Origin: a virus
IMG/VR virus record: IMGVR_UViG_3300045988_019421
Coordinates: 1-64,000 of that record
Direction: 5' to 3' (one strand)
DNA length: 64,000 nt
Within the stretch, counting starts at the first letter, position 1; each line of letters begins with the position of its first letter. Made by a program: the position numbers and the translations under genes. The notes under the pieces are model-generated. The model saw only the letters and a list, made by a program, of their open reading frames with translations. It was not told where the DNA came from and searched no databases. Shown here piece after piece: positions 5,102-34,623 of this stretch.

Positions 5102-5429
5102 ATTCTTCTCTAATTAATTTATTATGTTCAGAGATAGCTTTCATAATAAGCTCACGAGAATCCCAAAGACTTTCAGCACCAACGCTTAGATAATAATGTT
5201 CAAGTACTTGTTCATTAGACATATTTTGAAAGTCTTCGATACGAGGAACAGCTCTAATAACTTCATCAAACTTATTAGTAATATCGGTTAATAAGCTATA
5301 AAGTTTAGAACGAATAACCATGTTATCAGTATTGTTCTGTTTTATCCTAGCAATAAGCATAGGAATTATTTCACCGTTTTGCATTTCTATGAGTTTTCTT
5401 ATTCTTATTACGTTTACGTCTCTTAGCAA
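5052..5429 (-). CDS. hypothetical protein (125 aa; alternative start at 5384)
   Basis: ORF track. The internal ATG (MQNGEII...) would reduce the overlap with the 5371..5547 ORF. Confidence 0.6.
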   Translation of the reverse strand: MLRDVNVIRIRKLIEMQNGEIIPMLIARIKQNNTDNMVIRSKLYSLLTDITNKFDEVIRAVPRIEDFQNMSNEQVLEHYYLSVGAESLWDSRELIMKAISEHNKLIREEYEKPKEASKETIKDKG

Positions 5430-23240: not shown

Positions 23241-24176
23241 TTAATGAGTATTGCTATAAGTTATATCATCTTTGAATTTATCCATTATATCATAAACTGA
23301 TATATTAGAACAATTCAATAGAGTATTAATAGTATTAGCAGTACGTTGGTCTTTACAAGCAATATTAAAATTATCATAATTGAACTTACGAACAACACTA
23401 GGACTAGCTTTATGAATATAATAAATATCCATAGCAGAGACATTGAAGTCTACAATATCATTTTCATATTTATCTAATACGTCTTTAAGAGATATGTAAT
23501 ATCTACAATCACCAATAGCTCTAGCAGCACTAGCAGTATCTTTAAATCGAATAAAGAAACCGGAATCAATAGAATTACGAATAGTTAGCCATTCAAAATC
23601 TAGCTCGTATTCTTTATATGGTTGAACATAAAGTCTCAAATCATAAAGAGCTCGTCTAAAAACTCTTAAAGCATGAGTTCTTTCAGCTAGTCTAGAAGTC
23701 TTTTCTTCCAATTGTTTATCGAGCTTATCAATATTTTCTTTAGAACGGCTTAATTGAGTATTGAGTTCCTCATTAACTTTAACAGTAGCATTAAGAGTAT
23801 CTTCGATATTCTCTAACTTAATAAGACTATTAGTTTTCTCTTCAATAATCTTATCCTTCTTTAGAATAATATCTTTATATTCATTTTCTTGCTCTTCGAT
23901 TTGATTACGTAATTCGGTAATTCTATTACCGCTATTAGTAAGTTGTCCTTCAAGAAACTTAATACGTTCAGTTAACTCATTATTATTAGATTTAAGAGAT
24001 TCAATCTCATCACAATCTTTAATAGTATAAGTATTGCCTAAATTAGCAATCTCACAAATAGAAGCAAGTGATTGAAAATCTAAATCAATAATACAACCGC
24101 TTTCTTCAACAATAACAACTCCATTAGTATGAGATACAAGAGTTAGATGCTTTTTATCAATTACAATAGCTTTCAT
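23241..24176 (-). CDS. hypothetical coiled-coil protein (311 aa)
   Basis: Central ~130-aa E/K/L/N-rich heptad-like region. Confidence 0.7.
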   Translation of the reverse strand: MKAIVIDKKHLTLVSHTNGVVIVEESGCIIDLDFQSLASICEIANLGNTYTIKDCDEIESLKSNNNELTERIKFLEGQLTNSGNRITELRNQIEEQENEYKDIILKKDKIIEEKTNSLIKLENIEDTLNATVKVNEELNTQLSRSKENIDKLDKQLEEKTSRLAERTHALRVFRRALYDLRLYVQPYKEYELDFEWLTIRNSIDSGFFIRFKDTASAARAIGDCRYYISLKDVLDKYENDIVDFNVSAMDIYYIHKASPSVVRKFNYDNFNIACKDQRTANTINTLLNCSNISVYDIMDKFKDDITYSNTH

Positions 24177-24226
24177 AAATACAAGTATTAATTATTAAGA
24201 ATTTAATTTTAAAAGTAGAATCTATA

Positions 24227-24412
24227 CTATAATAGTATAGTACTATATAGTAGGCGAATAAAACTAATAACTATTATATAAGTTATTATAGTTTGAACTA
24301 AAGAACGAATGATAATAACCTTCTTATAAGAAAGGTAATTAAACATTAAATAACATAGGCATATAACTATCCCAATTAAAGATAGAAATATATGGAACTG
24401 ATAATCTGTCAT
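24227..24412 (-). CDS. hypothetical small membrane protein (61 aa)
   Basis: Two hydrophobic segments. It is one of the first genes of the minus-strand block. Confidence 0.45.
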   Translation of the reverse strand: MTDYQFHIFLSLIGIVICLCYLMFNYLSYKKVIIIRSLVQTIITYIIVISFIRLLYSTILL

Positions 24413-24467
24413 GGTGAAGCAATATCAAATAATATTAAGAATATACATAAAGTAGATGCAACTATTA

Positions 24468-24581
24468 TTAAAGCGAATAATGTAGTAAGAAGAGTAATCT
24501 TAGTGTTAATAAGAAACTCACCGCATTTAATAAGTGCGATAATAAATAGTAATGCTAAGACAATAATATCGTAGTTAGACA
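24468..24581 (-). CDS. possible small hydrophobic protein (37 aa, below track cutoff)
   Basis: Translated codon by codon as MSNYDIIVLALLFISHLLNAVSFLLTLRLLFLLHYSL. It competes with the plus-strand track ORF 24392..24574. Confidence 0.2.
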
Positions 24582-24628
24582 TAATAGTATAAGTTAATAA
24601 GTGGATAAGATAGAGAGCAGAAGAAGTA

Positions 24629-24684
24629 CAGTAATGTCACTCCTTTATGGGGGAGAAAAGCGAGCTTTGCGAGCGGGACAAGTC
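24629..24684 (+). repeat. M10: composite motif copy, forward, at the edge of the divergent region
   Basis: cagtaatgtca ctcctttatggggga gaaaagcgagctttgcgagcgggacaagtc. Confidence 0.9.
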
Positions 24685-24949
24685 AAGCTACACAACAATA
24701 CAATTATTAATAATAGTACTATTAATAATGTTACCAATAATGTTACTTCTGTTATCAGTTGTAATACATAGTATTGTTATTACCGGAATCGCTCGAACTA
24801 CTATTGTCAAAGACAATGGTAGTGACGCTCTAATAATAACAACTATAATATAATAGTAGACAATATAGTAGTATTATTATTAAGACTATCAATCCGATAT
24901 AATAGTGAAACTATTATAGAGGACTAATAACAAAGACAATTACAATAAT

Positions 24950-24994
24950 AACGACCATAATTCTAACGACCATAATTCTAACGACCATAATTCT
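24950..24994. repeat. perfect tandem repeat, 15 bp x 3
   Basis: aacgaccataattct x 3. Confidence 0.95.
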
Positions 24995-25070
24995 AATACT
25001 AAGGACTAATATCATAGATATTAGGAACTTAGAACTAACAATAACAACCGACAATTAGGTTTATTATATA

Positions 25071-25170
25071 AATAGGATTCAAATCTTAACTATTAATATA
25101 ATAGAAACAACAGTATAGATTAATAGTATAGATTAATAGTATGATAATAAAATAGGATTCAAATCCTAAC
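25071..25170. repeat. 20-nt direct repeat pair exactly 80 bp apart
   Basis: aataggattcaaatcttaac (25071-25090) and aataggattcaaatcctaac (25151-25170). The second forms a small hairpin, taggattcaaatccta. Confidence 0.9.
25112..25148. repeat. tandem repeat, 13 bp x ~2.8
   Basis: agtatagattaat agtatagattaat agtatgataat. Confidence 0.85.
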
Positions 25171-25357
25171 TCCATAAACGAAGAGGTTTAGGTAGTAGTC
25201 GTAACATTGTAGGTTAGAGTAGTGAGTTAGAATGAAGGAGTAGAGGTGAGAGAGGGAGTAGTCCTACTACTTAACCAACTCATCACTCTTATCTACATCC
25301 TATTACTATTCTTACTCCACTACTATTATCTCACTCTATTGTCTACTCTACTATCTA

Positions 25358-25384
25358 GCTTAACGAGGAGCCTTAGCGACCCTT
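25358..25384. repeat. GC-rich box, copy 1
   Basis: gcttaacgaggagccttagcgaccctt. Copy 2 lies exactly 300 bp downstream. Confidence 0.85.
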
Positions 25385-25393
25385 CCGAGCATT

Positions 25394-25465
25394 GATATTG
25401 TCAATACTAGTAATAGTCTTGATACTATTGATACTATTGATACTATTGATACTATTGATACTATT
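25394..25465. repeat. tandem repeat, 9 bp x ~8 (last 5 perfect)
   Basis: gatattgtc aatactagt aatagtctt, then gatactatt x 5 (25421-25465). Confidence 0.9.
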
Positions 25466-25492
25466 TGTTGGTGTGATTGTATGAGCTTGCTC

Positions 25493-25511
25493 CTATTGTC
25501 TACGACAATAG
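25493..25511. repeat. perfect 8-bp-arm hairpin/palindrome
   Basis: ctattgtc tac gacaatag. Confidence 0.85.
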
Positions 25512-25543
25512 TCACCGACCTTGCGGACGGTCTTTTCGACCCC

Positions 25544-25602
25544 TATATATATATATATTATAATTATATACTAAAGTATATAATATATATATATATAATA
25601 TA
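25544..25602. repeat. 59-bp A/T-only quasi-palindrome (candidate DNA-unwinding element)
   Basis: tatatatatatatattataattatatac taaa gtatataatatatatatatataatata. Confidence 0.8.
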
Positions 25603-25607
25603 GACGC

Positions 25608-25626
25608 ATCTGATTCTGTATCAGAT
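25608..25626. repeat. 7-bp-arm hairpin
   Basis: atctgat tctgt atcagat. Confidence 0.8.
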
Positions 25627-25657
25627 TTTCTAACTCTGCTATTAGTCCATTACTCTT

Positions 25658-25684
25658 GCTTAACGTGGAGCTGCTGCGACCCTT
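25658..25684. repeat. GC-rich box, copy 2
   Basis: gcttaacgtggagctgctgcgaccctt. Confidence 0.85.
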
Positions 25685-25715
25685 AAAGTTTTGATGTGGT
25701 TTTGCAAGGGTTTTA

Positions 25716-25769
25716 GCTTATCAGTTGGTTAGCTTCGCTTATCAGTTGTAGCATTTCGCTTATCAGTTG
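25716..25769. repeat. iteron-like 12-mer x 3 at an exact 21-bp period
   Basis: gcttatcagttg at 25716, 25737 and 25758. Confidence 0.9.
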
Positions 25770-25787
25770 ACTAGTGTCGTTCCCGAC

Positions 25788-25818
25788 CCCGAAGGACGTG
25801 CCCGAAGGACGTGCCCGA
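25788..25818. repeat. tandem repeat, 13 bp x 2.4
   Basis: cccgaaggacgtg cccgaaggacgtg cccga. Confidence 0.9.
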
Positions 25819-25824
25819 TGGCGA

Positions 25825-25905
25825 GCATACAGTCTAGTAGTATTCTTGTAGGCATACAGTCTAGTAGTATTCTCGAACACGATTAGCAAGAGTATTCTTG
25901 AACAC
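25825..25905. repeat. 22-nt direct repeat (27-bp period) plus a reiterated 15-mer
   Basis: gcatacagtctagtagtattct at 25825 and 25852. agtattctcgaacac (25866) and agtattcttgaacac (25891). Confidence 0.9.
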
Positions 25906-25931
25906 ATGCTGAATAGTGTAACTTTAGTTTA

Positions 25932-25955
25932 GTAGTGGAGATTTCTCTCCACTAC
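25932..25955 (-). terminator. perfect 10-bp hairpin downstream of the orphan gene 25964..26668
   Basis: GTAGTGGAGA TTTC TCTCCACTAC. No clear T-run follows, so terminator function is uncertain. Confidence 0.45.
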
Positions 25956-25963
25956 GTAACTGG

Positions 25964-26668
25964 TTAGGCAGCACCCTCTACATCAGGTTGGTATTTAGCC
26001 AACATGTCAGCAACGAGCATTTCGTCAGCAAGGGACAACGTACGCATACTAAGTTCGTACGGGAAATACTCATAACGGTCGTGTTCATTAACACGTTCTT
26101 CACGAGCCATTTTAGCAGCAAATGGATTAACGAACACTTCACCTTGTGCAAGCACGTGTCCAAGCACGCTAATACGCGCCTTCTTGAAGATAACGTGCAA
26201 CACTGACAATGGAGCTGTCATAACAGCATTGGCAAGCATTGGTTCGCCCTGACCTTTGAGAATCGCAGATAGCTGAATACGAGTAGTAAAGATATTACGA
26301 GTTGTAGACTCGACATAAGTACCACTAGCAGCATCTTTAACAAACTGTGGAATGTTGCGATTAACAACCACAGTAAGCGCACCTGCATAACGACTACTAT
26401 TATCAATGATATTAGTAATCATCAAGCTATCGTGATTCTCAAAATCAGGACGGTCAAGCAACAGACGAACAATATCGTCTGCGTCCTGTCCCTGATACTC
26501 GGATAGGTCAACTATACGAGCATCAGTAGCTTCATCAGCAGCTTCATCAGCAGCATCATCAGTAGCAACTGTTTCAGCGTTAGCACTTGCTGCATCAGCA
26601 GCTTCTTTTGCAGCTTTTGCAGCTGCTTCGGCTGCTAATCTAGCAGCATCATTAACTTTAGTTCCCAT
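25964..26668 (-). CDS. orphan GC-rich acidic protein (234 aa) with an Ala/Glu/Asp-rich N-terminus
   Basis: Clean ORF isolated inside the repeat region. GC is about 45-48 percent from one line counted by hand, versus roughly 30-35 percent elsewhere. A perfect 10-bp hairpin lies just downstream (25932-25955) and duplicated 28-nt elements lie upstream. Confidence 0.7.
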   Translation of the reverse strand: MGTKVNDAARLAAEAAAKAAKEAADAASANAETVATDDAADEAADEATDARIVDLSEYQGQDADDIVRLLLDRPDFENHDSLMITNIIDNSSRYAGALTVVVNRNIPQFVKDAASGTYVESTTRNIFTTRIQLSAILKGQGEPMLANAVMTAPLSVLHVIFKKARISVLGHVLAQGEVFVNPFAAKMAREERVNEHDRYEYFPYELSMRTLSLADEMLVADMLAKYQPDVEGAA

Positions 26669-26744
26669 AATAAAAATGAAATTAAATGTTATAAATCAGT
26701 CGGCAACTGTTCAACCAATGTGCATCCCGACTACACGCACAATG

Positions 26745-26808
26745 GCAATATGTTTAAAGTCATTTGGTTTGATAGTAACTGCAATATGTTTAAAGTCATT
26801 TGGTTTGA
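26745..26808 (-). promoter_or_regulatory. 28-nt element x 2 (36-bp period) upstream of the orphan gene; candidate promoter/operator
   Basis: gcaatatgtttaaagtcatttggtttga at 26745-26772 and 26781-26808. These lie 77-140 nt upstream of the 26668 start on the minus strand. Confidence 0.4.
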
Positions 26809-26991
26809 TTAAGCCAATAGTTCTTTAACAACATCGTTAGCATCTAGTATAAGTACTAACACTACTAATAGTATTAGAAAGCTATTCACATGGTTATCAT
26901 ACAACTTAATGTAACTTAGATGTATGAATACTGGCACACCTAGCATACTTAATGCTAAGTGTACCACTTTAATCTTATCACTCATATTCAT
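26809..26991 (-). CDS. hypothetical small membrane protein (60 aa)
   Basis: Hydrophobic segments HLALSMLGVPVFI and FLILLVVLVLIL. Confidence 0.4.
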   Translation of the reverse strand: MNMSDKIKVVHLALSMLGVPVFIHLSYIKLYDNHVNSFLILLVVLVLILDANDVVKELLA

Positions 26992-27056
26992 ACGTATCTA
27001 GTGTAATAACGTGAACAAAACTTGTCGTAGGTTTCACCTGCACGACCGTACTTTCT

Positions 27057-27149
27057 CTAATCCTTCTTCTGTTTATTAACCATAGACAGATAAGTAACAG
27101 TAGTCATAGCTACTGCTATTGATAACAACAATAGAAATATCATAAGCAT
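27057..27149 (-). CDS. possible 30-aa single-pass membrane peptide
   Basis: Hand-translated as MLMIFLLLLSIAVAMTTVTYLSMVNKQKKD. Confidence 0.2.
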   Translation of the reverse strand: MLMIFLLLLSIAVAMTTVTYLSMVNKQKKD

Positions 27150-27182
27150 AAGTATTTAATTAAACATTTATATTAATAGTAA

Positions 27183-27205
27183 GGTGACCACTAGATAGGG
27201 TCACC
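27183..27205 (-). terminator. hairpin overlapping the stop of 27191..27358
   Basis: GGTGACC / GGTCACC 7-bp stem with a 9-nt loop. Confidence 0.3.
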
Positions 27206-27358
27206 AAACACTACACCAACAATACCACATACCATTGCTATAAATCCAATGTTTGCAACAGTAAGAGAAGCAACACCTAGACCAATAGCAACAGTAATCA
27301 TACCACCAAATAGTGCCATAGCTCCAATAACAAACGCACCTTTACGCATCTTATTCAT
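27191..27358 (-). CDS. possible 55-aa Gly/Ala-rich membrane protein
   Basis: Hand-translated as MNKMRKGAFVIGAMALFGGMITVAIGLGVASLTVANIGFIAMVCGIVGVVFGDPI. The third copy of the 28-nt element lies 31 nt upstream. Confidence 0.4.
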   Translation of the reverse strand: MNKMRKGAFVIGAMALFGGMITVAIGLGVASLTVANIGFIAMVCGIVGVVFGDPI

Positions 27359-27389
27359 ATCTTATATCTTTAGTAATTAAACATTAATA

Positions 27390-27418
27390 GCAATATGTTT
27401 AAGGTCATTTGGTCTTGA
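27390..27418 (-). promoter_or_regulatory. third copy of the 28-nt element, upstream of the small membrane-protein ORFs
   Basis: gcaatatgtttaaggtcatttggtcttga. It lies 31 nt upstream of the 27358 start on the minus strand. Confidence 0.4.
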
Positions 27419-27481
27419 CGGGGGTATTGGAATTGGTTTGAGAGTAGGGGGCTATCAGGGTAGGAGCTTCACCTCGATAAA

Positions 27482-27502
27482 AATATACTCACGAAAAATA
27501 TT
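27482..27502. repeat. small stem-loop with an ACTCACGAAA loop, copy G
   Basis: aatat actcacgaaaa atatt. Confidence 0.35.
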
Positions 27503-27529
27503 ATTTTGTGGGGCAGAACTAACACTAGC

Positions 27530-27565
27530 ATTTCTAATTCTATTTCTAATTCTATTTCTAATTCT
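27530..27565. repeat. perfect tandem repeat, 12 bp x 3
   Basis: atttctaattct x 3 within a T/C-rich, G-poor tract. Confidence 0.95.
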
Positions 27566-27946
27566 CTCCCTTCTAATAGTTCCAATAGTAGTTCCAACAG
27601 TAATTCCAGTCCTATTCCTAAGCTCATACACATTAGTACTTCTAACAATAGTTCCTAATTCTTTCTTTCTAGTACTTCTAATTCCCTTTGTATCTATTGT
27701 TGTTAGTAGTCTAACTCTTCTTATACAATAATTATCTTATTAGTTAGTCCTATTAGTCTAATCAATTCCTTTAAGTCCTTAATTAGTCTTACTTATATTA
27801 TATAGTATTAGTTGTCTACTGGGTCTTATTGTGTAAGCCCTTTCTCCTCTTCTATCGAAGAGTTCGAAGATTTAGCATTAGGATTGTAAAAATAGAATGG
27901 TAAGATTTAGTATATATTTTGGTTAAGTATTAGATTTGTATTAGAG

Positions 27947-27982
27947 TGTGTACTAATGTGAACTAGTGTGAATAGATGTGAA
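27947..27982. promoter_or_regulatory. TGTGWA hexamer x 4 at an exact 10-bp period
   Basis: tgtgta at 27947; tgtgaa at 27957, 27967 and 27977. Helically phased, ~160 nt upstream of the first plus-strand gene. Confidence 0.35.
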
Positions 27983-28034
27983 TTATACAGCGAATACAAT
28001 TCTAAAGGTTTTTTAACGAGTTAGATATTGATAG

Positions 28035-28051
28035 TACGAATATTATTCGTA
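28035..28051. promoter_or_regulatory. 17-bp perfect palindrome upstream of the plus-strand block
   Basis: tacgaata t tattcgta. Confidence 0.35.
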
Positions 28052-28141
28052 TACTTGTACTATTAATGACTGGTGCTTATATTACTCTTAGTAATGCTAG
28101 TCAACTTAATTAATAGTATTAACAATCTAATTAAAGTAATC

Positions 28142-32325: not shown

Positions 32326-34623
32326 ATGGAACTTAGTGAATATCCCTTTTATCAATTCTATTATGAAGAAGATAAAGGAAATAAATATAAACACGCAAGA
32401 GACTGTGGATATAAAGACCCATTCGACCATTTTTTAATAGGAGAAAGTGGAGGGTTCTTAATGAATATTGACCCACATAAGCGTTTTGTTAATACAGACC
32501 TTCTACGTCCTGCTGCTGTTACTTATGAGAAGGAAGGAGTTTATACTAAATTTGCAGTAGATAGTATGCCTCATATAAACTTTCGTAAACAGGAAACTCT
32601 ACGTAGACTTGTTGGTTTTAAAGCTCCTTGTCTTATGGATACTAGAACTGGCGAGATAGAAGATGTCTATATTACTGGTGAACATTATAATTTTATTAAT
32701 TATGGTCGTATTCTTAAACTAGATACTAAAACACTTCGAGTAGAAGAAGGTAAAGTTACTGGTCGTAAGATAAGAGGATTTCCTAGATTTATTGATTGCC
32801 AATGGTGGTACTTCTTAATTAAACAGTTTTGTCGGGAGAACGGTTTGTTCCTTATTAATGATAAGACAAGACGTGGTGGATTTAGTTATATGGAAGCTAT
32901 TGGTTCTGCTAACTTTATTAATCTTACTCCTAACCGTGCTGTTATTCATGCTGCTAGTGATAATAAGTTCTTGGTTCAATCAGGTGGTTTATCTGACTTT
33001 ATGAAGAAACAAATTATCTTCTATGAATCTAATACTCCTTTTGCTAGAGGTATAGCTAAGATTGATGCTAGTGATTTTATCTTAGGTTACAAAGACCCTA
33101 GTACAGCTATTATTGATGATAACAGTTGGAATAGTGCTTGTATATCTGTATCTACTAAGAATAATCCTTCTGCTGCTGTTGGTAAGGATGCCGGAGAAAT
33201 CAAATGTGAAGAGATGTCAGAGTTTGAGAACTTTGATGATTTTATGGATGTAACTGAACCTACTCTAAAGACTGGCTCTGTTACTACTGGTTTTCTTAAT
33301 GCTTGGGGTACTGCTGGTAAAGCTAACGCAGGTTGGGTAACATTTGAACAAAATTTCTATGACCCTAGAGGTAGAAACTTTATGGCATTTGAAAATGTAT
33401 GGGATAAAGATAGTAGACCGGAAGTATGTGGTTACTTTAAACCTTATTGTTGGGGACTTGAAGGTTATAAGATTGGCGATGATAATCAAATTGCTACTCT
33501 TACTTCTCTTGATGATGATGGTAATTCTGATATAGCTCTTGGTTTTCAGATAGCAGAAGAAGAACGTGCCGCTGAAAAAGCTAAGAGTAAATCATTTGCT
33601 AAGTTTATTAGTTATTGTGGACAATATGCTAATATGCCTAGTGAATCATTTAGTTCTGTAAGTGAGAATATATTTAGTAGTGAGATATTAGATGAATGGG
33701 AACAAGAACTAAAGATGTCTAATAAGTATAACTTCTATATAGATGGTAAGTTTGTAGAGTATGATTCAGATAATTTCGAGTTTATTCCTAATGAACGTAT
33801 TGCTGCTACTGGTGGTGTATTTAAGAAAGACTACTTTGATTATATTAAGAATGTTCCTCGTCACTCTAATGAAGACCCTGAAGGTTGTATTCGTAAATGG
33901 TTTAATCCAATTAAAGTAGAATACATAGATAAAAAGACAGGTCAGCTAACTAAAGGTACTCCTCCGGGAATATATAGTATTAGTTATGACCCTGTTGGTA
34001 TTGATAAAGATAAGAAAGAACTTACTAATAAACATTCACATAATAGTATTAAAGTTTGGATGAATCCTTGTATATATAATGGTTATCGTCCTAGATTATG
34101 TGCTGTATATTATGGTCGTCCTGATGAACTAGAAAAAGCAGATAGAATCTGTTATTACTTTGCAGTTACTTATAATTGTCTTGGTACAACTAATGTCGAG
34201 ATTAATCGTGGTGAAACAGTTAGTAATTTTAAGAAGTGGAAAGCTATTAGATACTTAGGTTATCATCCAGTTCATTTATGGGATACTAATATTAATACTA
34301 AGAAGATTAATACTATTGGTTATGATATTAGTAGTGAAACAGTTAAACTTGATGGTCTTCGAATGTTAAAGGAAATGTTGTATTCCCCCATAGGGAAGTT
34401 CGAGGATGGTCGTGATATGCTTGTTCTTCATACTATATATGATTATCAGTCAATACTAGAGTTAAAGAAATGGTCTAATACTGGTAACTTTGACCGTGTA
34501 TCTGAAATGATTGTTCGTGGTATTGAATGGGCTGCTAATGATAAGTTTGCTAAAAAGCAGCTTGAACATAGACAGAGAGTGCAAACAGAGAAAGAAAACT
34601 TTTGGAATCGTAAACGTTATTAA
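32326..34623 (+). CDS. terL: terminase large subunit (probable)
   Basis: 765 aa, positioned just upstream of the portal. It has a deviant Walker-A-like DKTRRGGFS and an RNaseH-like nuclease signature SISYDPVGIDKD in the C-terminal half. Confidence 0.6.
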   Translation: MELSEYPFYQFYYEEDKGNKYKHARDCGYKDPFDHFLIGESGGFLMNIDPHKRFVNTDLLRPAAVTYEKEGVYTKFAVDSMPHINFRKQETLRRLVGFKAPCLMDTRTGEIEDVYITGEHYNFINYGRILKLDTKTLRVEEGKVTGRKIRGFPRFIDCQWWYFLIKQFCRENGLFLINDKTRRGGFSYMEAIGSANFINLTPNRAVIHAASDNKFLVQSGGLSDFMKKQIIFYESNTPFARGIAKIDASDFILGYKDPSTAIIDDNSWNSACISVSTKNNPSAAVGKDAGEIKCEEMSEFENFDDFMDVTEPTLKTGSVTTGFLNAWGTAGKANAGWVTFEQNFYDPRGRNFMAFENVWDKDSRPEVCGYFKPYCWGLEGYKIGDDNQIATLTSLDDDGNSDIALGFQIAEEERAAEKAKSKSFAKFISYCGQYANMPSESFSSVSENIFSSEILDEWEQELKMSNKYNFYIDGKFVEYDSDNFEFIPNERIAATGGVFKKDYFDYIKNVPRHSNEDPEGCIRKWFNPIKVEYIDKKTGQLTKGTPPGIYSISYDPVGIDKDKKELTNKHSHNSIKVWMNPCIYNGYRPRLCAVYYGRPDELEKADRICYYFAVTYNCLGTTNVEINRGETVSNFKKWKAIRYLGYHPVHLWDTNINTKKINTIGYDISSETVKLDGLRMLKEMLYSPIGKFEDGRDMLVLHTIYDYQSILELKKWSNTGNFDRVSEMIVRGIEWAANDKFAKKQLEHRQRVQTEKENFWNRKRY
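34384..34398 (-). repeat. M13: degenerate motif copy, reverse
   Basis: tcccccatagggaag. In terL, read as SPIGK. Confidence 0.55.

What the first reader, a model, noticed from the sequence alone, without database searches (positions are those of the whole stretch)
25358..25905. Origin-like core: A/T-only palindrome flanked by 300-bp-spaced GC boxes and 21-bp-phased iterons
Within 550 bp I see:
- two 27-nt GC-rich boxes (gcttaacgNggagc...gcgaccctt) exactly 300 bp apart (25358 and 25658);
- a 9-bp x 8 array;
- an 8-bp-arm hairpin;
- a 59-bp stretch containing only A and T with quasi-palindromic symmetry (25544-25602);
- a 7-bp-arm hairpin;
- three gcttatcagttg 12-mers at exactly 21-bp spacing, which is two helical turns;
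- a 13-bp x 2.4 array;
- a 22-nt repeat at 27-bp spacing.

Iterons next to an AT-rich unwinding element are the classic architecture of plasmid and phage origins.
Basis: partly seen in the sequence, partly recalled or inferred. Interest (0 to 1): 0.65.

Follow-up and report, generated by a model that had tools for sequence, protein, structure and literature searches.

The report
Origin-like control region in a crAss-like phage
A crAss-like gut phage, a close relative of Bacteroides phage crAss002, has a 1.4-kb gene-free stretch with three perfectly phased repeats and the easiest-to-melt DNA in the window; it is a reasonable but unproven candidate for the still unmapped replication origin of these very abundant phages.

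Summary
The "A/T-only" stretch contains one C and one G. The 300-bp spacing of the GC boxes is not conserved in relatives.

The window is a Jahgtovirus crAss-like phage, 87% identical to crAss002. The finding lies inside a 1.4-kb non-coding region (24583-25963). This region sits between a small, probably early gene cluster and the replication genes, about 2 kb from the gene-orientation and GC-skew switch.

- **Phased repeats:** three GCTTATCAGnTG 12-mers at exactly 21 bp form the most conserved block of the locus: 96.6% identity in 47 relatives, against 88% for the flanking genes. A sister lineage keeps the 21-bp phasing with a different spacer.
- **AT tract:** it is the least stable duplex in the 64 kb and is present in 40 of 41 relatives.
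- **Separability:** the gap between the AT tract and the repeats varies from 45 to 1218 bp, because the interval is a cargo slot. It holds small ORFs in many relatives and a RepL gene in two.

No initiator gene, DnaA-box cluster, host-type promoter or Rfam RNA was found.

The origin reading is the best single explanation, at about 0.4. The main rival, at about 0.3, is an operator or 5' regulatory array for leftward transcription. The finding is moderately interesting and can be tested in crAss002, which is cultured.

The parts
24583..25963 (.). Whole non-coding control region that contains the finding. It lies between small conserved minus-strand membrane-protein ORFs (24227-24582) and the 234-aa gene (crAss002 gp80 homologue).
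   Evidence: ORF lists; the small ORFs stay intact in relatives; no tRNA or Rfam hit; mosaic conservation against 50 relatives.
24746..24763 (+). Fourth, solitary copy of the 12-mer with its flanks (CTTCTGTTATCAGTTGTA), about 970 bp left of the triple array.
   Evidence: family D11, 89% to repeat 2 with flanks. YGTTATCAGTTG is present at the same relative place in many relatives. The sister lineage L099 has TTTATCAGTTG directly upstream of its gp76-like gene.
24803..24817 (.). Palindrome ATTGTC-aaa-GACAAT, the partner of the palindrome at 25495.
   Evidence: The only two exact matches to ATTGTCNNNGACAAT in 64 kb.
25150..25365 (+). 216-nt conserved element: a purine-rich arm followed by a G-less pyrimidine-rich arm, forming a long imperfect hairpin. 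It ends in GC box 1.
   Evidence: Plus-strand RNA fold -65.1 kcal/mol, z = -3.56; minus strand z = -1.66. 89-97% identical in most of the 25 relatives that carry it, and 216 nt long in 22 of 25. No two-sided compensatory changes.
25354..25384 (+). GC box 1 (TCTAGCTTAACGAGGAGCCTTAGCGACCCTT).
   Evidence: family D6; present in most relatives.
25391..25480 (+). 9-bp tandem array (ATACTATTG, about 7 copies; core 25404-25465).
   Evidence: Unit sequence and period differ in relatives, for example 15-mers in cr107_1. Segment identity is only 84.6%.
25493..25511 (.). 8-bp-arm palindrome CTATTGTC-tac-GACAATAG.
   Evidence: the arms are conserved in crAss002 and cr107_1.
25544..25602 (.). (TA)n-type quasi-palindromic AT tract, 57 of 59 bases A/T. 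Candidate DNA-unwinding or cruciform element.
   Evidence: Longest AT-only runs and least stable 50-mer in the window. 22-bp-stem hairpin as single-stranded DNA, -10.5 kcal/mol, z = -2.3. An AT-only run of at least 20 nt within 1300 nt of the repeats in 40 of 41 sequences. At least 8 metagenome contigs start inside or at the edge of it.
25608..25626 (.). 7-bp-arm hairpin ATCTGAT-tctgt-ATCAGAT. It contains the TATCAG core of the 12-mer.
   Evidence: present only in window-type variants.
25654..25684 (+). GC box 2, 58 bp left of the first 12-mer.
   Evidence: family D6. Present at -57/-58 in 13 of the 41 sequences with enough left flank (window-type); a single box lies at -38 in L019, L041 and L052.
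25709..25783 (+). Iteron block: three GCTTATCAGTTG at 25716, 25737 and 25758 (21-bp phasing) with their conserved spacers.
   Evidence: 96.6% mean identity in 47 relatives, the highest of all segments tested. Unique in the window. Mosaic variants diverge sharply immediately to its left.
25788..25818 (+). 13-bp tandem array (CCCGAAGGACGTG x 2.4).
   Evidence: In most relatives it is replaced by 0-4 copies of a different 13-mer, GCTTTGCCGGATA.
25825..25873 (+). 22-nt direct repeat x 2 at 27-bp spacing (GCATACAGTCTAGTAGTATTCT).
   Evidence: family D5; 1-2 related copies in relatives.
25932..25955 (.). 10-bp-stem hairpin (GTAGTGGAGA-tttc-TCTCCACTAC), 8 nt beyond the stop codon of the 234-aa gene.
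   Evidence: Three stem alleles in relatives (GTAGTGGAGA, GTAGGAGAGG, GTAGGAGAGA), each with a matching 3' arm. This gives three pairs changed on both sides. No T-run follows on either strand.
25964..26668 (-). 234-aa acidic protein (crAss002 gp80 homologue). It is always adjacent to the iteron module. Function unknown.
   Evidence: No Pfam, PHROG or PDB match. 1615 homologues without names.

Best explanation
The finding is the right-hand half of a conserved, modular 1.4-kb non-coding control region at the head of the replication-gene block of a Jahgtovirus crAss-like phage. It is most likely the phage's replication-origin region.

**Proposed mechanism**
1. An unidentified DNA-binding protein, from the phage or the host, occupies the three 12-mers. 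Their 21-bp spacing puts all three sites on one face of the helix.
2. Other proteins may occupy the ATTGTC-N3-GACAAT palindromes and the 9-bp array on the other side.
3. The resulting bending or wrapping, probably helped by leftward early transcription running out of the upstream small-gene cluster, opens the (TA)n quasi-palindrome.
4. The phage helicase, primase and polymerase then load at the opened DNA.

**What is shown**
- The repeats and their exact phasing.
- The strong purifying selection on the 12-mer block.
- The extreme instability of the AT tract and its near-universal presence.
- The position of the locus next to the replication genes.

**What is inferred**
- Protein binding to the repeats.
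- Melting at the AT tract.
- Any role of transcription.
- That replication starts here at all.
For: - **Identity of the window:** crAss002-like Jahgtovirus.
- **Repeat architecture is non-random:**
- **12-mer block:** 96.6% identical in 47 relatives, against 88% for the flanking coding sequences. Three copies at exactly 21 bp in 48 of 52 sequences. The sister lineage L075/L095/L099/L101 keeps two TTATCAGTTG at 21 bp with a different spacer, so phasing is conserved beyond sequence.
- **AT tract:** the two longest AT-only runs and the least stable 50-mer in the window, about 4.5 sd from the mean. An AT-only run of at least 20 nt lies within 1300 nt of the repeats in 40 of 41 sequences, although its flanks are mosaic. 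It can extrude a 22-bp-stem hairpin.
- **Genomic position:** directly upstream, in the direction of transcription, of the helicase, polymerase, primase, SSB and RecT block.
- **Analogue in p-crAssphage:** a non-coding gap in the same relative position (1713-2374) carries repeats and palindromes. It matches the position that the authors give for their second Ori-Finder origin; they also report higher long-read coverage near their predicted origins (PMC10983915).
- **RepL cassette:** a RepL gene (Pfam PF05732, E = 2.9e-7, 30.6 bits, above the gathering score of 20.3) ends exactly at the first 12-mer in relatives L021 and L040. It is related to p-crAssphage RepL gp43.
- **Motif is locus-specific:** the 12-mer occurs nowhere else in the window or in the crAss002 genome.
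- **GC skew:** the locus lies within about 2 kb of the crAss002 whole-genome minimum.
- **Open question in the field:** the replication mode of Crassvirales is stated to be unknown (PMC10136315).
Against: - The gap between the 12-mers and the AT tract is not conserved. It takes discrete values from 45 to 1218 bp because cargo is inserted between them. The sister lineage has the 12-mers with no AT-only run in the interval.
- In 24 of 41 sequences a minus-strand ORF begins 9-82 nt from the array, which fits an operator or 5' leader.
- No Rep, RepL, O-like or other DNA-binding initiator is found among the neighbouring genes of the window. The adjacent 234-aa protein is acidic and matches nothing.
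- The RepL cassette of L021 has its own repeats (TTACACGCAAATCTGTGTAA x 2) and its own host-type promoter motif, so RepL need not bind the 12-mers.
- There is no DnaA-box enrichment.
- The GC-skew minimum of crAss002 lies at the gene-orientation switch (position 81), not at the AT tract (90742). The two skew arms measure 64 and 29 kb, which is as expected if skew follows gene direction.
- The 9-bp array and the other tandem repeats evolve fast (84.6% identity, with a different unit in cr107_1).
Confidence: 0.4

Rival explanations
1. The three phased 12-mers are a transcriptional operator or 5' regulatory array, not an origin. A phage regulator binds them cooperatively to switch on, block or time leftward transcription out of the early gene cluster. 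That transcription would run into the variable cassette and onward towards the replication (middle) genes. On this reading the AT tract is an unrelated, slippage-prone microsatellite or a structural insulator.
For: - A minus-strand ORF starts 9-82 nt beyond the array in 24 of 41 sequences. The distant lineage L099 has a 265-aa ORF starting about 12 nt away and no AT tract nearby.
- Conservation starts abruptly at the first 12-mer, while everything to its left is exchangeable cargo.
- The array lies just downstream of the hairpin that ends the 234-aa gene. That hairpin is maintained by compensatory changes.
- The spacers are conserved as well as the 12-mers, as in a fixed nucleoprotein site.
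- Three tandem direct sites about 20 bp apart are also typical of winged-helix activators (own knowledge: OmpR sites F1-F3).
Against: - No Bacteroides-type promoter (TAnnTTTG, with or without TTTG at -33) occurs on either strand between 24100 and 26000. Sigma-70-like matches are at chance level.
- In the window and 16 other sequences with enough flank, no ORF of at least 45 aa starts within 100 nt of the array.
- This reading does not explain why an extreme AT tract is kept in 40 of 41 sequences, nor why 1.4 kb of repeat-rich non-coding DNA is retained.
- No candidate regulator gene was identified.
Confidence: 0.3
2. The region is the packaging-initiation (pac) region. The small terminase recognises the phased repeats and the first headful cut is made nearby.
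For: - crAss002 was predicted by PhageTerm to use pac-type headful packaging, with no pac position reported (PMC8042965).
- Known pac and cosB sites are built from phased repeats (own knowledge: SPP1 pacL/pacR, P1 pac, lambda cosB R sites).
- The 12-mer occurs at one locus only.
Against: - Pac sites usually lie in or next to the terminase genes. The large terminase gene (32326-34623; crAss002 gp8) is about 6.5 kb away, on the other strand block.
- Contig ends near the locus cluster in the (TA)n tract rather than at a fixed point by the repeats. This is what short-read assembly failure at AT-only palindromes would give.
Confidence: 0.12
3. The region is mainly a template for abundant non-coding RNA, like the early long non-coding RNAs of the crAss-like phage phi14:2. 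The repeats and hairpins would then act at the RNA level.
For: - In phi14:2, two long intergenic regions next to the early genes are transcribed more strongly than most genes, from the earliest time point sampled (bioRxiv 10.1101/2020.03.07.982082).
- The window's region lies immediately downstream of a probable early cluster.
- The adjacent 216-nt element folds significantly better than shuffles as plus-strand RNA (z = -3.56). It is 89-97% identical in most of the relatives that carry it, at constant length.
- The hairpin at 25932-25955 shows compensatory changes.
Against: - No Rfam family matches.
- The 216-nt hairpin has no pair changed on both sides.
- The similar purine/pyrimidine segment of p-crAssphage does not fold better than shuffles.
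- No promoter was identified.
- 21-bp phasing is a property of double-stranded DNA and has no obvious meaning in RNA.
Confidence: 0.1
4. The repeats are a plasmid-like partition (centromere) site, or simply fast-evolving repeat DNA without a specific function.
For: - A phage-plasmid lifestyle has been proposed for p-crAssphage (PMC10983915).
- The left half of the region carries lineage-specific tandem repeats that are not alignable with crAss002.
Against: - No ParA/ParB-type gene was found among the ten neighbouring ORFs scanned.
- 96.6% conservation of the 12-mer block, above that of the flanking genes, excludes neutrality for that block.
Confidence: 0.08

Closest known systems
Iteron-type theta origins of plasmids and temperate phages (lambda ori, pSC101 ori, P1 oriR); own knowledge
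   Same: - Three or more direct repeats of about 12-22 bp at about two-helical-turn spacing.
- An AT-rich, easily melted segment nearby.
- A location next to replication genes.
   Different: - No cognate initiator gene next to the repeats in the window.
- No DnaA boxes.
- The distance from the repeats to the AT tract varies from 45 to 1218 bp among close relatives. In the classical origins the two are contiguous.
Ori-Finder-predicted origins of p-crAssphage (Carjivirus communis), Schmidtke et al. preprint, PMC10983915
   Same: - Same family (Intestiviridae).
- The same relative position: the divergent switch, then a few small genes, then a repeat-rich non-coding gap at the start of the replication block.
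- A purine-rich arm followed by a pyrimidine-rich arm, then palindromes and short tandem repeats.
- RepL is linked to such regions.
   Different: - No detectable sequence homology of the repeats. p-crAssphage has TATAAC-N5-GTTATA palindromes instead of TTATCAGTTG direct repeats.
- The window has no RepL.
- The p-crAssphage origins are themselves only predictions backed by coverage.
Transcription-primed phage origins (T7 primary origin; T4 oriF and oriG); own knowledge
   Same: - No dedicated initiator protein is required.
- An AT-rich unwinding element lies downstream of a transcription unit.
- The phage brings its own RNA polymerase (T7) or re-programmes the host one (T4).
   Different: - No promoter was identified upstream of the AT tract here.
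- Transcription through the tract is inferred only from gene order and from the phi14:2 analogy.
Early long non-coding RNA regions of crAss-like phage phi14:2 (bioRxiv 10.1101/2020.03.07.982082)
   Same: Long intergenic regions adjacent to the early genes of a crAss-like phage.
   Different: - A different family (Steigviridae).
- No sequence comparison was possible.
- Transcription of the window's region is untested.
Operator arrays of tandem direct sites (for example OmpR F1-F3 at ompF); own knowledge
   Same: - Three direct sites at about 20-21 bp.
- A position immediately upstream of an ORF in most relatives.
   Different: - No promoter motif and no regulator gene were identified.
- An extreme AT tract and many other repeat families accompany the array.

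Membership tests
Iteron-type replication origin | Three or more direct repeats in helical phase | tested here: met
   Three exact 12-mers at 21 and 21 bp. The phasing is kept in 48 of 52 sequences and in a sister lineage.
Iteron-type replication origin | AT-rich DNA-unwinding element contiguous with the iterons | tested here: inconclusive
   The AT tract is the weakest duplex in the window, 113 bp from the first repeat. The gap ranges from 45 to 1218 bp among relatives, and the tract is absent from the interval in lineage L099.
Iteron-type replication origin | Cognate initiator (Rep) gene in cis | tested here: not met
   No Rep-like Pfam or PHROG hit among ten neighbouring ORFs. A RepL query finds nothing in the window. 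RepL is present only in relatives L021 and L040, and there it has its own repeats.
Iteron-type replication origin | Host-factor sites (DnaA boxes) | tested here: not met
   TTATCCACA with up to 1 mismatch: 16 matches in 64 kb against 20 expected. Two of them lie in the non-coding region, and none is next to the AT tract.
Iteron-type replication origin | Replication initiates here, or the fragment replicates autonomously | not testable with these tools
   This needs marker-frequency analysis, 2D gels or plasmid assays.
Origin marked by the GC-skew switch | Cumulative GC-skew minimum at the site | tested here: inconclusive
   The crAss002 minimum is at position 81. The AT tract is at 90742 and the iterons at 91057, about 2 kb away. 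The minimum coincides with the gene-orientation switch and the two arms measure 64 and 29 kb. In the window, skew is about 0 across 24-26 kb.
Transcription-primed origin (T7/T4 type) | Promoter directly upstream of the AT-rich element | tested here: not met
   No Bacteroides -7 motif in 24100-26000. Sigma-70-like matches are at chance level. Promoters of the virion RNA polymerase are unknown, so this test is incomplete.
pac site | Location in or next to the terminase genes; a defined cleavage point | tested here: not met
   The large terminase gene lies about 6.5 kb away. The cleavage point is not testable without reads.
Known RNA families (Rfam 15) | Covariance-model match | tested here: not met
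   No match at gathering scores over the whole window. In 24400-28100 only two chance-level miRNA-model matches, E = 0.27 and 0.56.
Partition (centromere) site | Adjacent parA/parB-type genes | tested here: not met
   None found among the neighbouring ORFs scanned. The crAss002 annotation lists none in the 50000-93030 bp stretch retrieved.

The most novel reading that the evidence does not exclude
The locus is a transcription-activated origin fired by the injected virion RNA polymerase. Early leftward transcripts leave the small-gene cluster and pass the conserved hairpin and the protein-loaded 12-mer array. They then invade the (TA)n tract as an R-loop that primes DNA synthesis, following T7/T4 logic.

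This would tie the hallmark giant RNA polymerase of crAss-like phages directly to replication initiation. The slot between the array and the AT tract would be a tolerated landing pad for accessory replicon genes such as RepL. The conserved 216-nt hairpin would be the counterpart of the abundant early non-coding RNAs of phi14:2.
Probability: 0.12. Interest if true: 0.7.

Novelty: new member of a known kind. Interest (0 to 1): 0.45.

Why it matters
[quoted passage not shown] The only origin proposals I found are Ori-Finder predictions for p-crAssphage (PMC10983915).

A sharply defined and very strongly conserved phased repeat array, together with the weakest duplex of the genome, gives a concrete pair of elements to mutate, footprint and map. 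Both are present in the cultured phage crAss002, at MN917146 91057-91110 and 90742-90776.

There are also two practical points.
- The (TA)n tract is a recurrent breakpoint of short-read assemblies of these genomes.
- The interval next to it is a hotspot where relatives carry different small genes and, in two cases, a RepL replication gene. This bears on the proposed phage-plasmid lifestyle.

Tried and rejected
- **Function of the adjacent 234-aa protein (gp80 homologue).** No Pfam, PHROG or PDB sequence match. 1615 homologues were found, but the 120 listed were nearly identical and unnamed. The AlphaFold2 model on that shallow alignment was unusable (mean pLDDT 38), so no fold search was run. 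A weak collinear BLASTP similarity to the p-crAssphage gp02 "putative SSB" was not supported by hhalign, and I dropped it.
- **Covariation in the 216-nt hairpin.** The sequences are too similar: no pair is changed on both sides.
- **The p-crAssphage purine/pyrimidine segment as a structured RNA.** It does not fold better than shuffles on either strand.
- **Host-type promoters and intrinsic terminators in the region.** None were found beyond chance.
- **A counterpart of the repeats in plasmids or bacterial genomes.** There is no plasmid match.
- **The contig-end cluster near the locus as evidence of physical genome ends.** Rejected: the ends fall inside the (TA)n tract at slightly different bases, which points to assembly failure.
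- **The exact 300-bp GC-box spacing as meaningful.** Rejected: it is 278-290 bp in relatives.
- **The phi14:2 intergenic regions.** I fetched the record. The gene numbering differs from the paper, so I did not pursue it.
- **p-crAssphage under NC_024711, NC_067194 or JQ995537.** These accessions are not in the collection. The genome was found as BK010471.
Full report
**What the window is.** The window has about 32% G+C. It carries a minus-strand gene block up to about 27.4 kb and a plus-strand block from 28.07 kb. The 1.6 kb around the finding matches Bacteroides phage crAss002 (MN917146; Crassvirales, Intestiviridae, Jahgtovirus) at 87% identity over 69% of its length. It matches cr107_1 more weakly. 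In crAss002 the minus-strand block encodes two helicases, a DNA polymerase, RecT, SSB, a DnaG-type primase and a ligase. The plus-strand block encodes the terminase, portal, capsid and giant RNA-polymerase genes.

**Where the finding sits.** The finding lies in an ORF-poor stretch. On its left are two small membrane-protein ORFs (24227-24582, minus strand) that stay intact in relatives. On its right is a 234-aa acidic protein of unknown function (25964-26668, minus strand; the crAss002 gp80 homologue). The gene-orientation switch is further right, at 27.4-28.07 kb. The locus is therefore inside the minus-strand block: downstream of a short cluster of small genes (55 aa, 60 aa, 234 aa) and upstream of the replication genes.

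**Check of the observation.** All eight listed features are there; exact coordinates are in the parts list. Three corrections apply.
- The 59-bp tract has one C and one G, which leaves AT-only runs of 27 and 26 nt.
- The 9-bp array has about 7 copies.
- The 300-bp GC-box spacing is specific to this genome. Relatives with two boxes have 278-290 bp, and many have one box.

**The features exceed chance.**
- In 64 kb only two exact 12-mers occur three times at equal 13-40 bp spacing. Both are in this region, and none appeared in 100 Markov simulations.
- Exact TTATCAGTTG occurs four times, all between 24752 and 25769.
- ATTGTC-N3-GACAAT occurs twice, at 24803 and 25495.
- The AT tract holds the two longest AT-only runs. 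It is the least stable 50-mer by about 4.5 sd. As single-stranded DNA it can form a 22-bp-stem hairpin.

**Comparative anatomy: the right module.** A search with the 234-aa protein returned 50 related IMG/VR loci with 79-96% protein identity. The comparison splits the finding into two modules with a variable slot between them. The right module runs from the first 12-mer to the stop codon of the 234-aa gene.
- Its 75-nt core (window 25709-25783) holds the three 12-mers and their spacers. It averages 96.6% identity in 47 relatives. The two flanking coding sequences average 88%.
- Forty-eight sequences have three copies at exactly 21 bp, and four have two. Only position 10 of the 12-mer varies (CAGnTG).
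- A more distant lineage (L075, L095, L099, L101) keeps two TTATCAGTTG at 21 bp with an unrelated spacer.
- To the right of the core lies a 13-bp tandem array. Its copy number (0-4) and even its unit sequence differ between lineages.
- Further right come one or two copies of the 22-27-nt repeat, and then a 10-bp-stem hairpin just past the stop codon. The hairpin stem occurs in three alleles with matching changes on both arms.

**Comparative anatomy: the cargo slot.** Immediately to the left of the first 12-mer, similarity between relatives stops abruptly. At least seven unrelated fillings follow.
- The window type has GC box 2, the 7-bp hairpin and the AT tract.
- The crAss002 type has a 59-aa minus-strand ORF (gp79, weak bPH_4 match).
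- Three other types carry different small minus-strand ORFs of 58-77 aa.
- One short type has the AT tract 56 bp away.
- In L021 and L040 there is a 171-aa plus-strand ORF whose stop codon abuts the first 12-mer. It matches Pfam RepL above the gathering score (E = 2.9e-7). It is 33% identical to RepL gp43 of p-crAssphage.

The window has no RepL.

**Comparative anatomy: the left module.** This module is GC box 1, the 9-bp-type array, the ATTGTC-N3-GACAAT palindrome and the AT tract. It is less conserved in sequence (84.6%), but its order is usually kept. An AT-only run of at least 20 nt lies within 1.3 kb of the 12-mers in 40 of 41 sequences with enough flank. The gap takes discrete values from 45 to 1218 bp. 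The L099 lineage has none in the interval. In 24 of 41 sequences a minus-strand ORF of at least 45 aa starts 9-82 nt from the first 12-mer.

**Other evidence bearing on function.**
- *RNA and promoters.* No tRNA and no Rfam family were found. No Bacteroides-type promoter motif occurs on either strand in 24100-26000. Sigma-70-like and terminator-like matches are at chance level.
- *Host-factor sites and initiators.* DnaA boxes are not enriched. None of ten neighbouring ORFs has a DNA-binding or initiator domain. The 234-aa protein is acidic, with an Ala/Asp/Glu-rich N-terminus, and could not be modelled.
- *Counterparts elsewhere.* No plasmid carries the 12-mer block, and no bacterial genome among the rows returned does.
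- *GC skew.* In the complete crAss002 genome the cumulative GC skew has its minimum at position 81 and its maximum at 64305. These are the two gene-orientation switches, and they give arms of 64 and 29 kb. The AT tract (90742-90776) and the 12-mers (91057-91110) lie about 2 kb from the minimum, in a plateau of near-zero skew (one search shows the same in the window). Skew follows gene direction here, so it cannot locate an origin.
- *Contig ends.* At least eight of the 50 metagenome contigs begin inside or at the edge of the (TA)n tract. I read this as short-read assembly failure, not as genome ends.

**Literature.**
- For p-crAssphage, a preprint predicts two origins with Ori-Finder. One is upstream of the first RepL. 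The other is about 2.6 kb downstream. The authors report higher long-read coverage near both (PMC10983915).
- In the BK010471 record, RepL gp88 sits at the divergent switch. A 660-bp non-coding gap (1713-2374) follows a few small genes, which fits the position given for the second predicted origin. It contains a purine-rich then a pyrimidine-rich segment, four TATAAC-N5-GTTATA palindromes and short tandem repeats. This is the positional and architectural analogue of the window's region, although the motifs differ.
- crAss002 was predicted to package by a pac-type headful mechanism. The pac position is not given (PMC8042965).
- In phi14:2, long intergenic regions beside the early genes give very abundant early non-coding RNAs. 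Early transcripts made by the virion polymerase share no promoter motif (bioRxiv 10.1101/2020.03.07.982082).
- A 2023 review states that the mode of replication of Crassvirales is unknown (PMC10136315).
- No paper in the library combines Crassvirales with iterons. None of the crAss-phage papers I read, including the crAss002 paper, describes this locus.

**Interpretation.** The origin reading remains the best single explanation; I put it at about 0.4. It accounts for most of the observations together.
- A locus-specific, phase-locked binding array under very strong selection.
- An extreme and nearly universal unwinding-prone tract.
- Many auxiliary repeats and palindromes.
- A position at the head of the replication genes.
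- An analogous region in p-crAssphage that matches the position given for a predicted origin.
- A RepL cassette landing exactly here in two relatives.

It is weakened by several points.
- The array and the AT tract are separable.
- The window has no initiator gene.
- The RepL cassette has its own repeats.
- The array sits where an operator or 5' leader would sit in most relatives.

I therefore give about 0.3 to a purely transcriptional role for the 12-mers. Smaller weights go to a pac site (0.12), an RNA-level function (0.10), and a partition site or no function (0.08). The origin and transcription readings are not mutually exclusive. A transcription-activated origin, as in T7, T4 or P1 oriL (own knowledge), would reconcile them, and it is the most novel reading the data allow.

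**Verdict.** If it is an origin, it is a new member of a known kind. Interest is moderate, because the element is sharply defined, conserved across a genus of very abundant gut phages, and present in a cultured isolate in which the decisive experiments can be done.

Noticed in passing
window 25150-25365 (+): A 216-nt conserved non-coding element just left of the finding. A purine-rich arm is followed by a G-less pyrimidine-rich arm, and together they fold into a long imperfect hairpin. As plus-strand RNA it gives -65.1 kcal/mol and z = -3.56; the minus strand gives z = -1.66. It is 89-97% identical in most of the 25 relatives that carry it and 216 nt long in 22 of 25. Variation is mostly G/A opposite U, and no pair is changed on both sides. 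It is a candidate structured RNA or DNA element.
   Followed up: partly
window 26745-26768, 26781-26804, 27390-27413 (+): The 24-mer GCAATATGTTTAAAGTCATTTGGT occurs three times and nowhere else in 64 kb. Each copy lies just upstream, in minus-strand terms, of a small gene: the 234-aa gene and the 55-aa gene. Copies also occur in crAss002 and in lineage L099. They are candidate early promoters or operators that do not resemble the host consensus.
   Followed up: partly
L021 and L040 (IMG/VR relatives), slot immediately left of the 12-mers: A 171-aa plus-strand ORF matches Pfam RepL (E = 2.9e-7, above the gathering score). Its stop codon abuts the first 12-mer. The cassette brings its own TATATTTG promoter-like motif and two TTACACGCAAATCTGTGTAA palindromes. 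The protein is 33% identical to RepL gp43 of p-crAssphage. In L021 the nearest AT-only run of at least 20 nt is about 1.2 kb from the 12-mers.
   Followed up: partly
relatives L013, L016, L026, L027, L032, L037, L042, L047, at the equivalent of window 25544-25602: At least eight of 50 metagenome contigs start inside or at the edge of the (TA)n tract. The tract appears to be a recurrent break point for short-read assembly of Jahgtovirus genomes.
   Followed up: partly
slot left of the 12-mers in relatives (crAss002 gp79 and three other types): At least four mutually dissimilar small minus-strand ORFs (58-77 aa) occupy the same slot in different relatives. They share a strand-rich N-terminus and a helical C-terminus. 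gp79 gives a near-threshold bPH_4 match (E = 1e-4). The gp79 cassette in crAss002 is flanked by an 11-bp direct repeat, GATTTTAGCTT.
   Followed up: partly
L139 (p-crAssphage BK010471) 1713-2374: This non-coding gap at the start of the replication block has a C-poor purine-rich segment followed by a G-less pyrimidine-rich segment. It also has four TATAAC-N5-GTTATA palindromes and a GATACTATTGATA-like motif that resembles the window's 9-bp unit. The fold is not better than shuffles.
   Followed up: partly
window 25932-25955: A hairpin 8 nt past the stop codon of the 234-aa gene occurs in three stem alleles among relatives, with compensatory changes at three pairs. It lacks a T-run on either strand, so it is not a canonical intrinsic terminator.
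   Followed up: partly
window 27420-28072: A second ORF-poor, pyrimidine-rich repeat region lies at the divergent gene-orientation switch. It contains ATTTCTAATTCT x 3 at 27530, TAGTTCCAACAG x 2.7 at 27577 and TGTGAACTAA x 3.6 at 27947. The crAss002 whole-genome GC-skew minimum maps here, so it is an alternative origin candidate.
   Followed up: no
window 24227-24582 (-) versus crAss002 gp77 (+): Two small hydrophobic minus-strand ORFs (61 and 57 aa) stay intact in 20-24 relatives. So does the overlapping plus-strand ORF that crAss002 annotates as gp77. The plus-strand 68-aa ORF at 24647-24853 has in-frame 12-nt indels, and internal stops in 5 relatives. The annotation of this stretch in crAss002 may need revision.
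   Followed up: partly
L001 (crAss002) 5240-5335 and L041, left of their AT tracts: Alternating purine-pyrimidine runs rich in CG, CA and TA (for example ACGCACGCGTACACGCACGTATATAA) directly flank the (TA)n tract in crAss002-type and L041-type variants, but not in the window. These runs are Z-DNA-prone (own knowledge).
   Followed up: no
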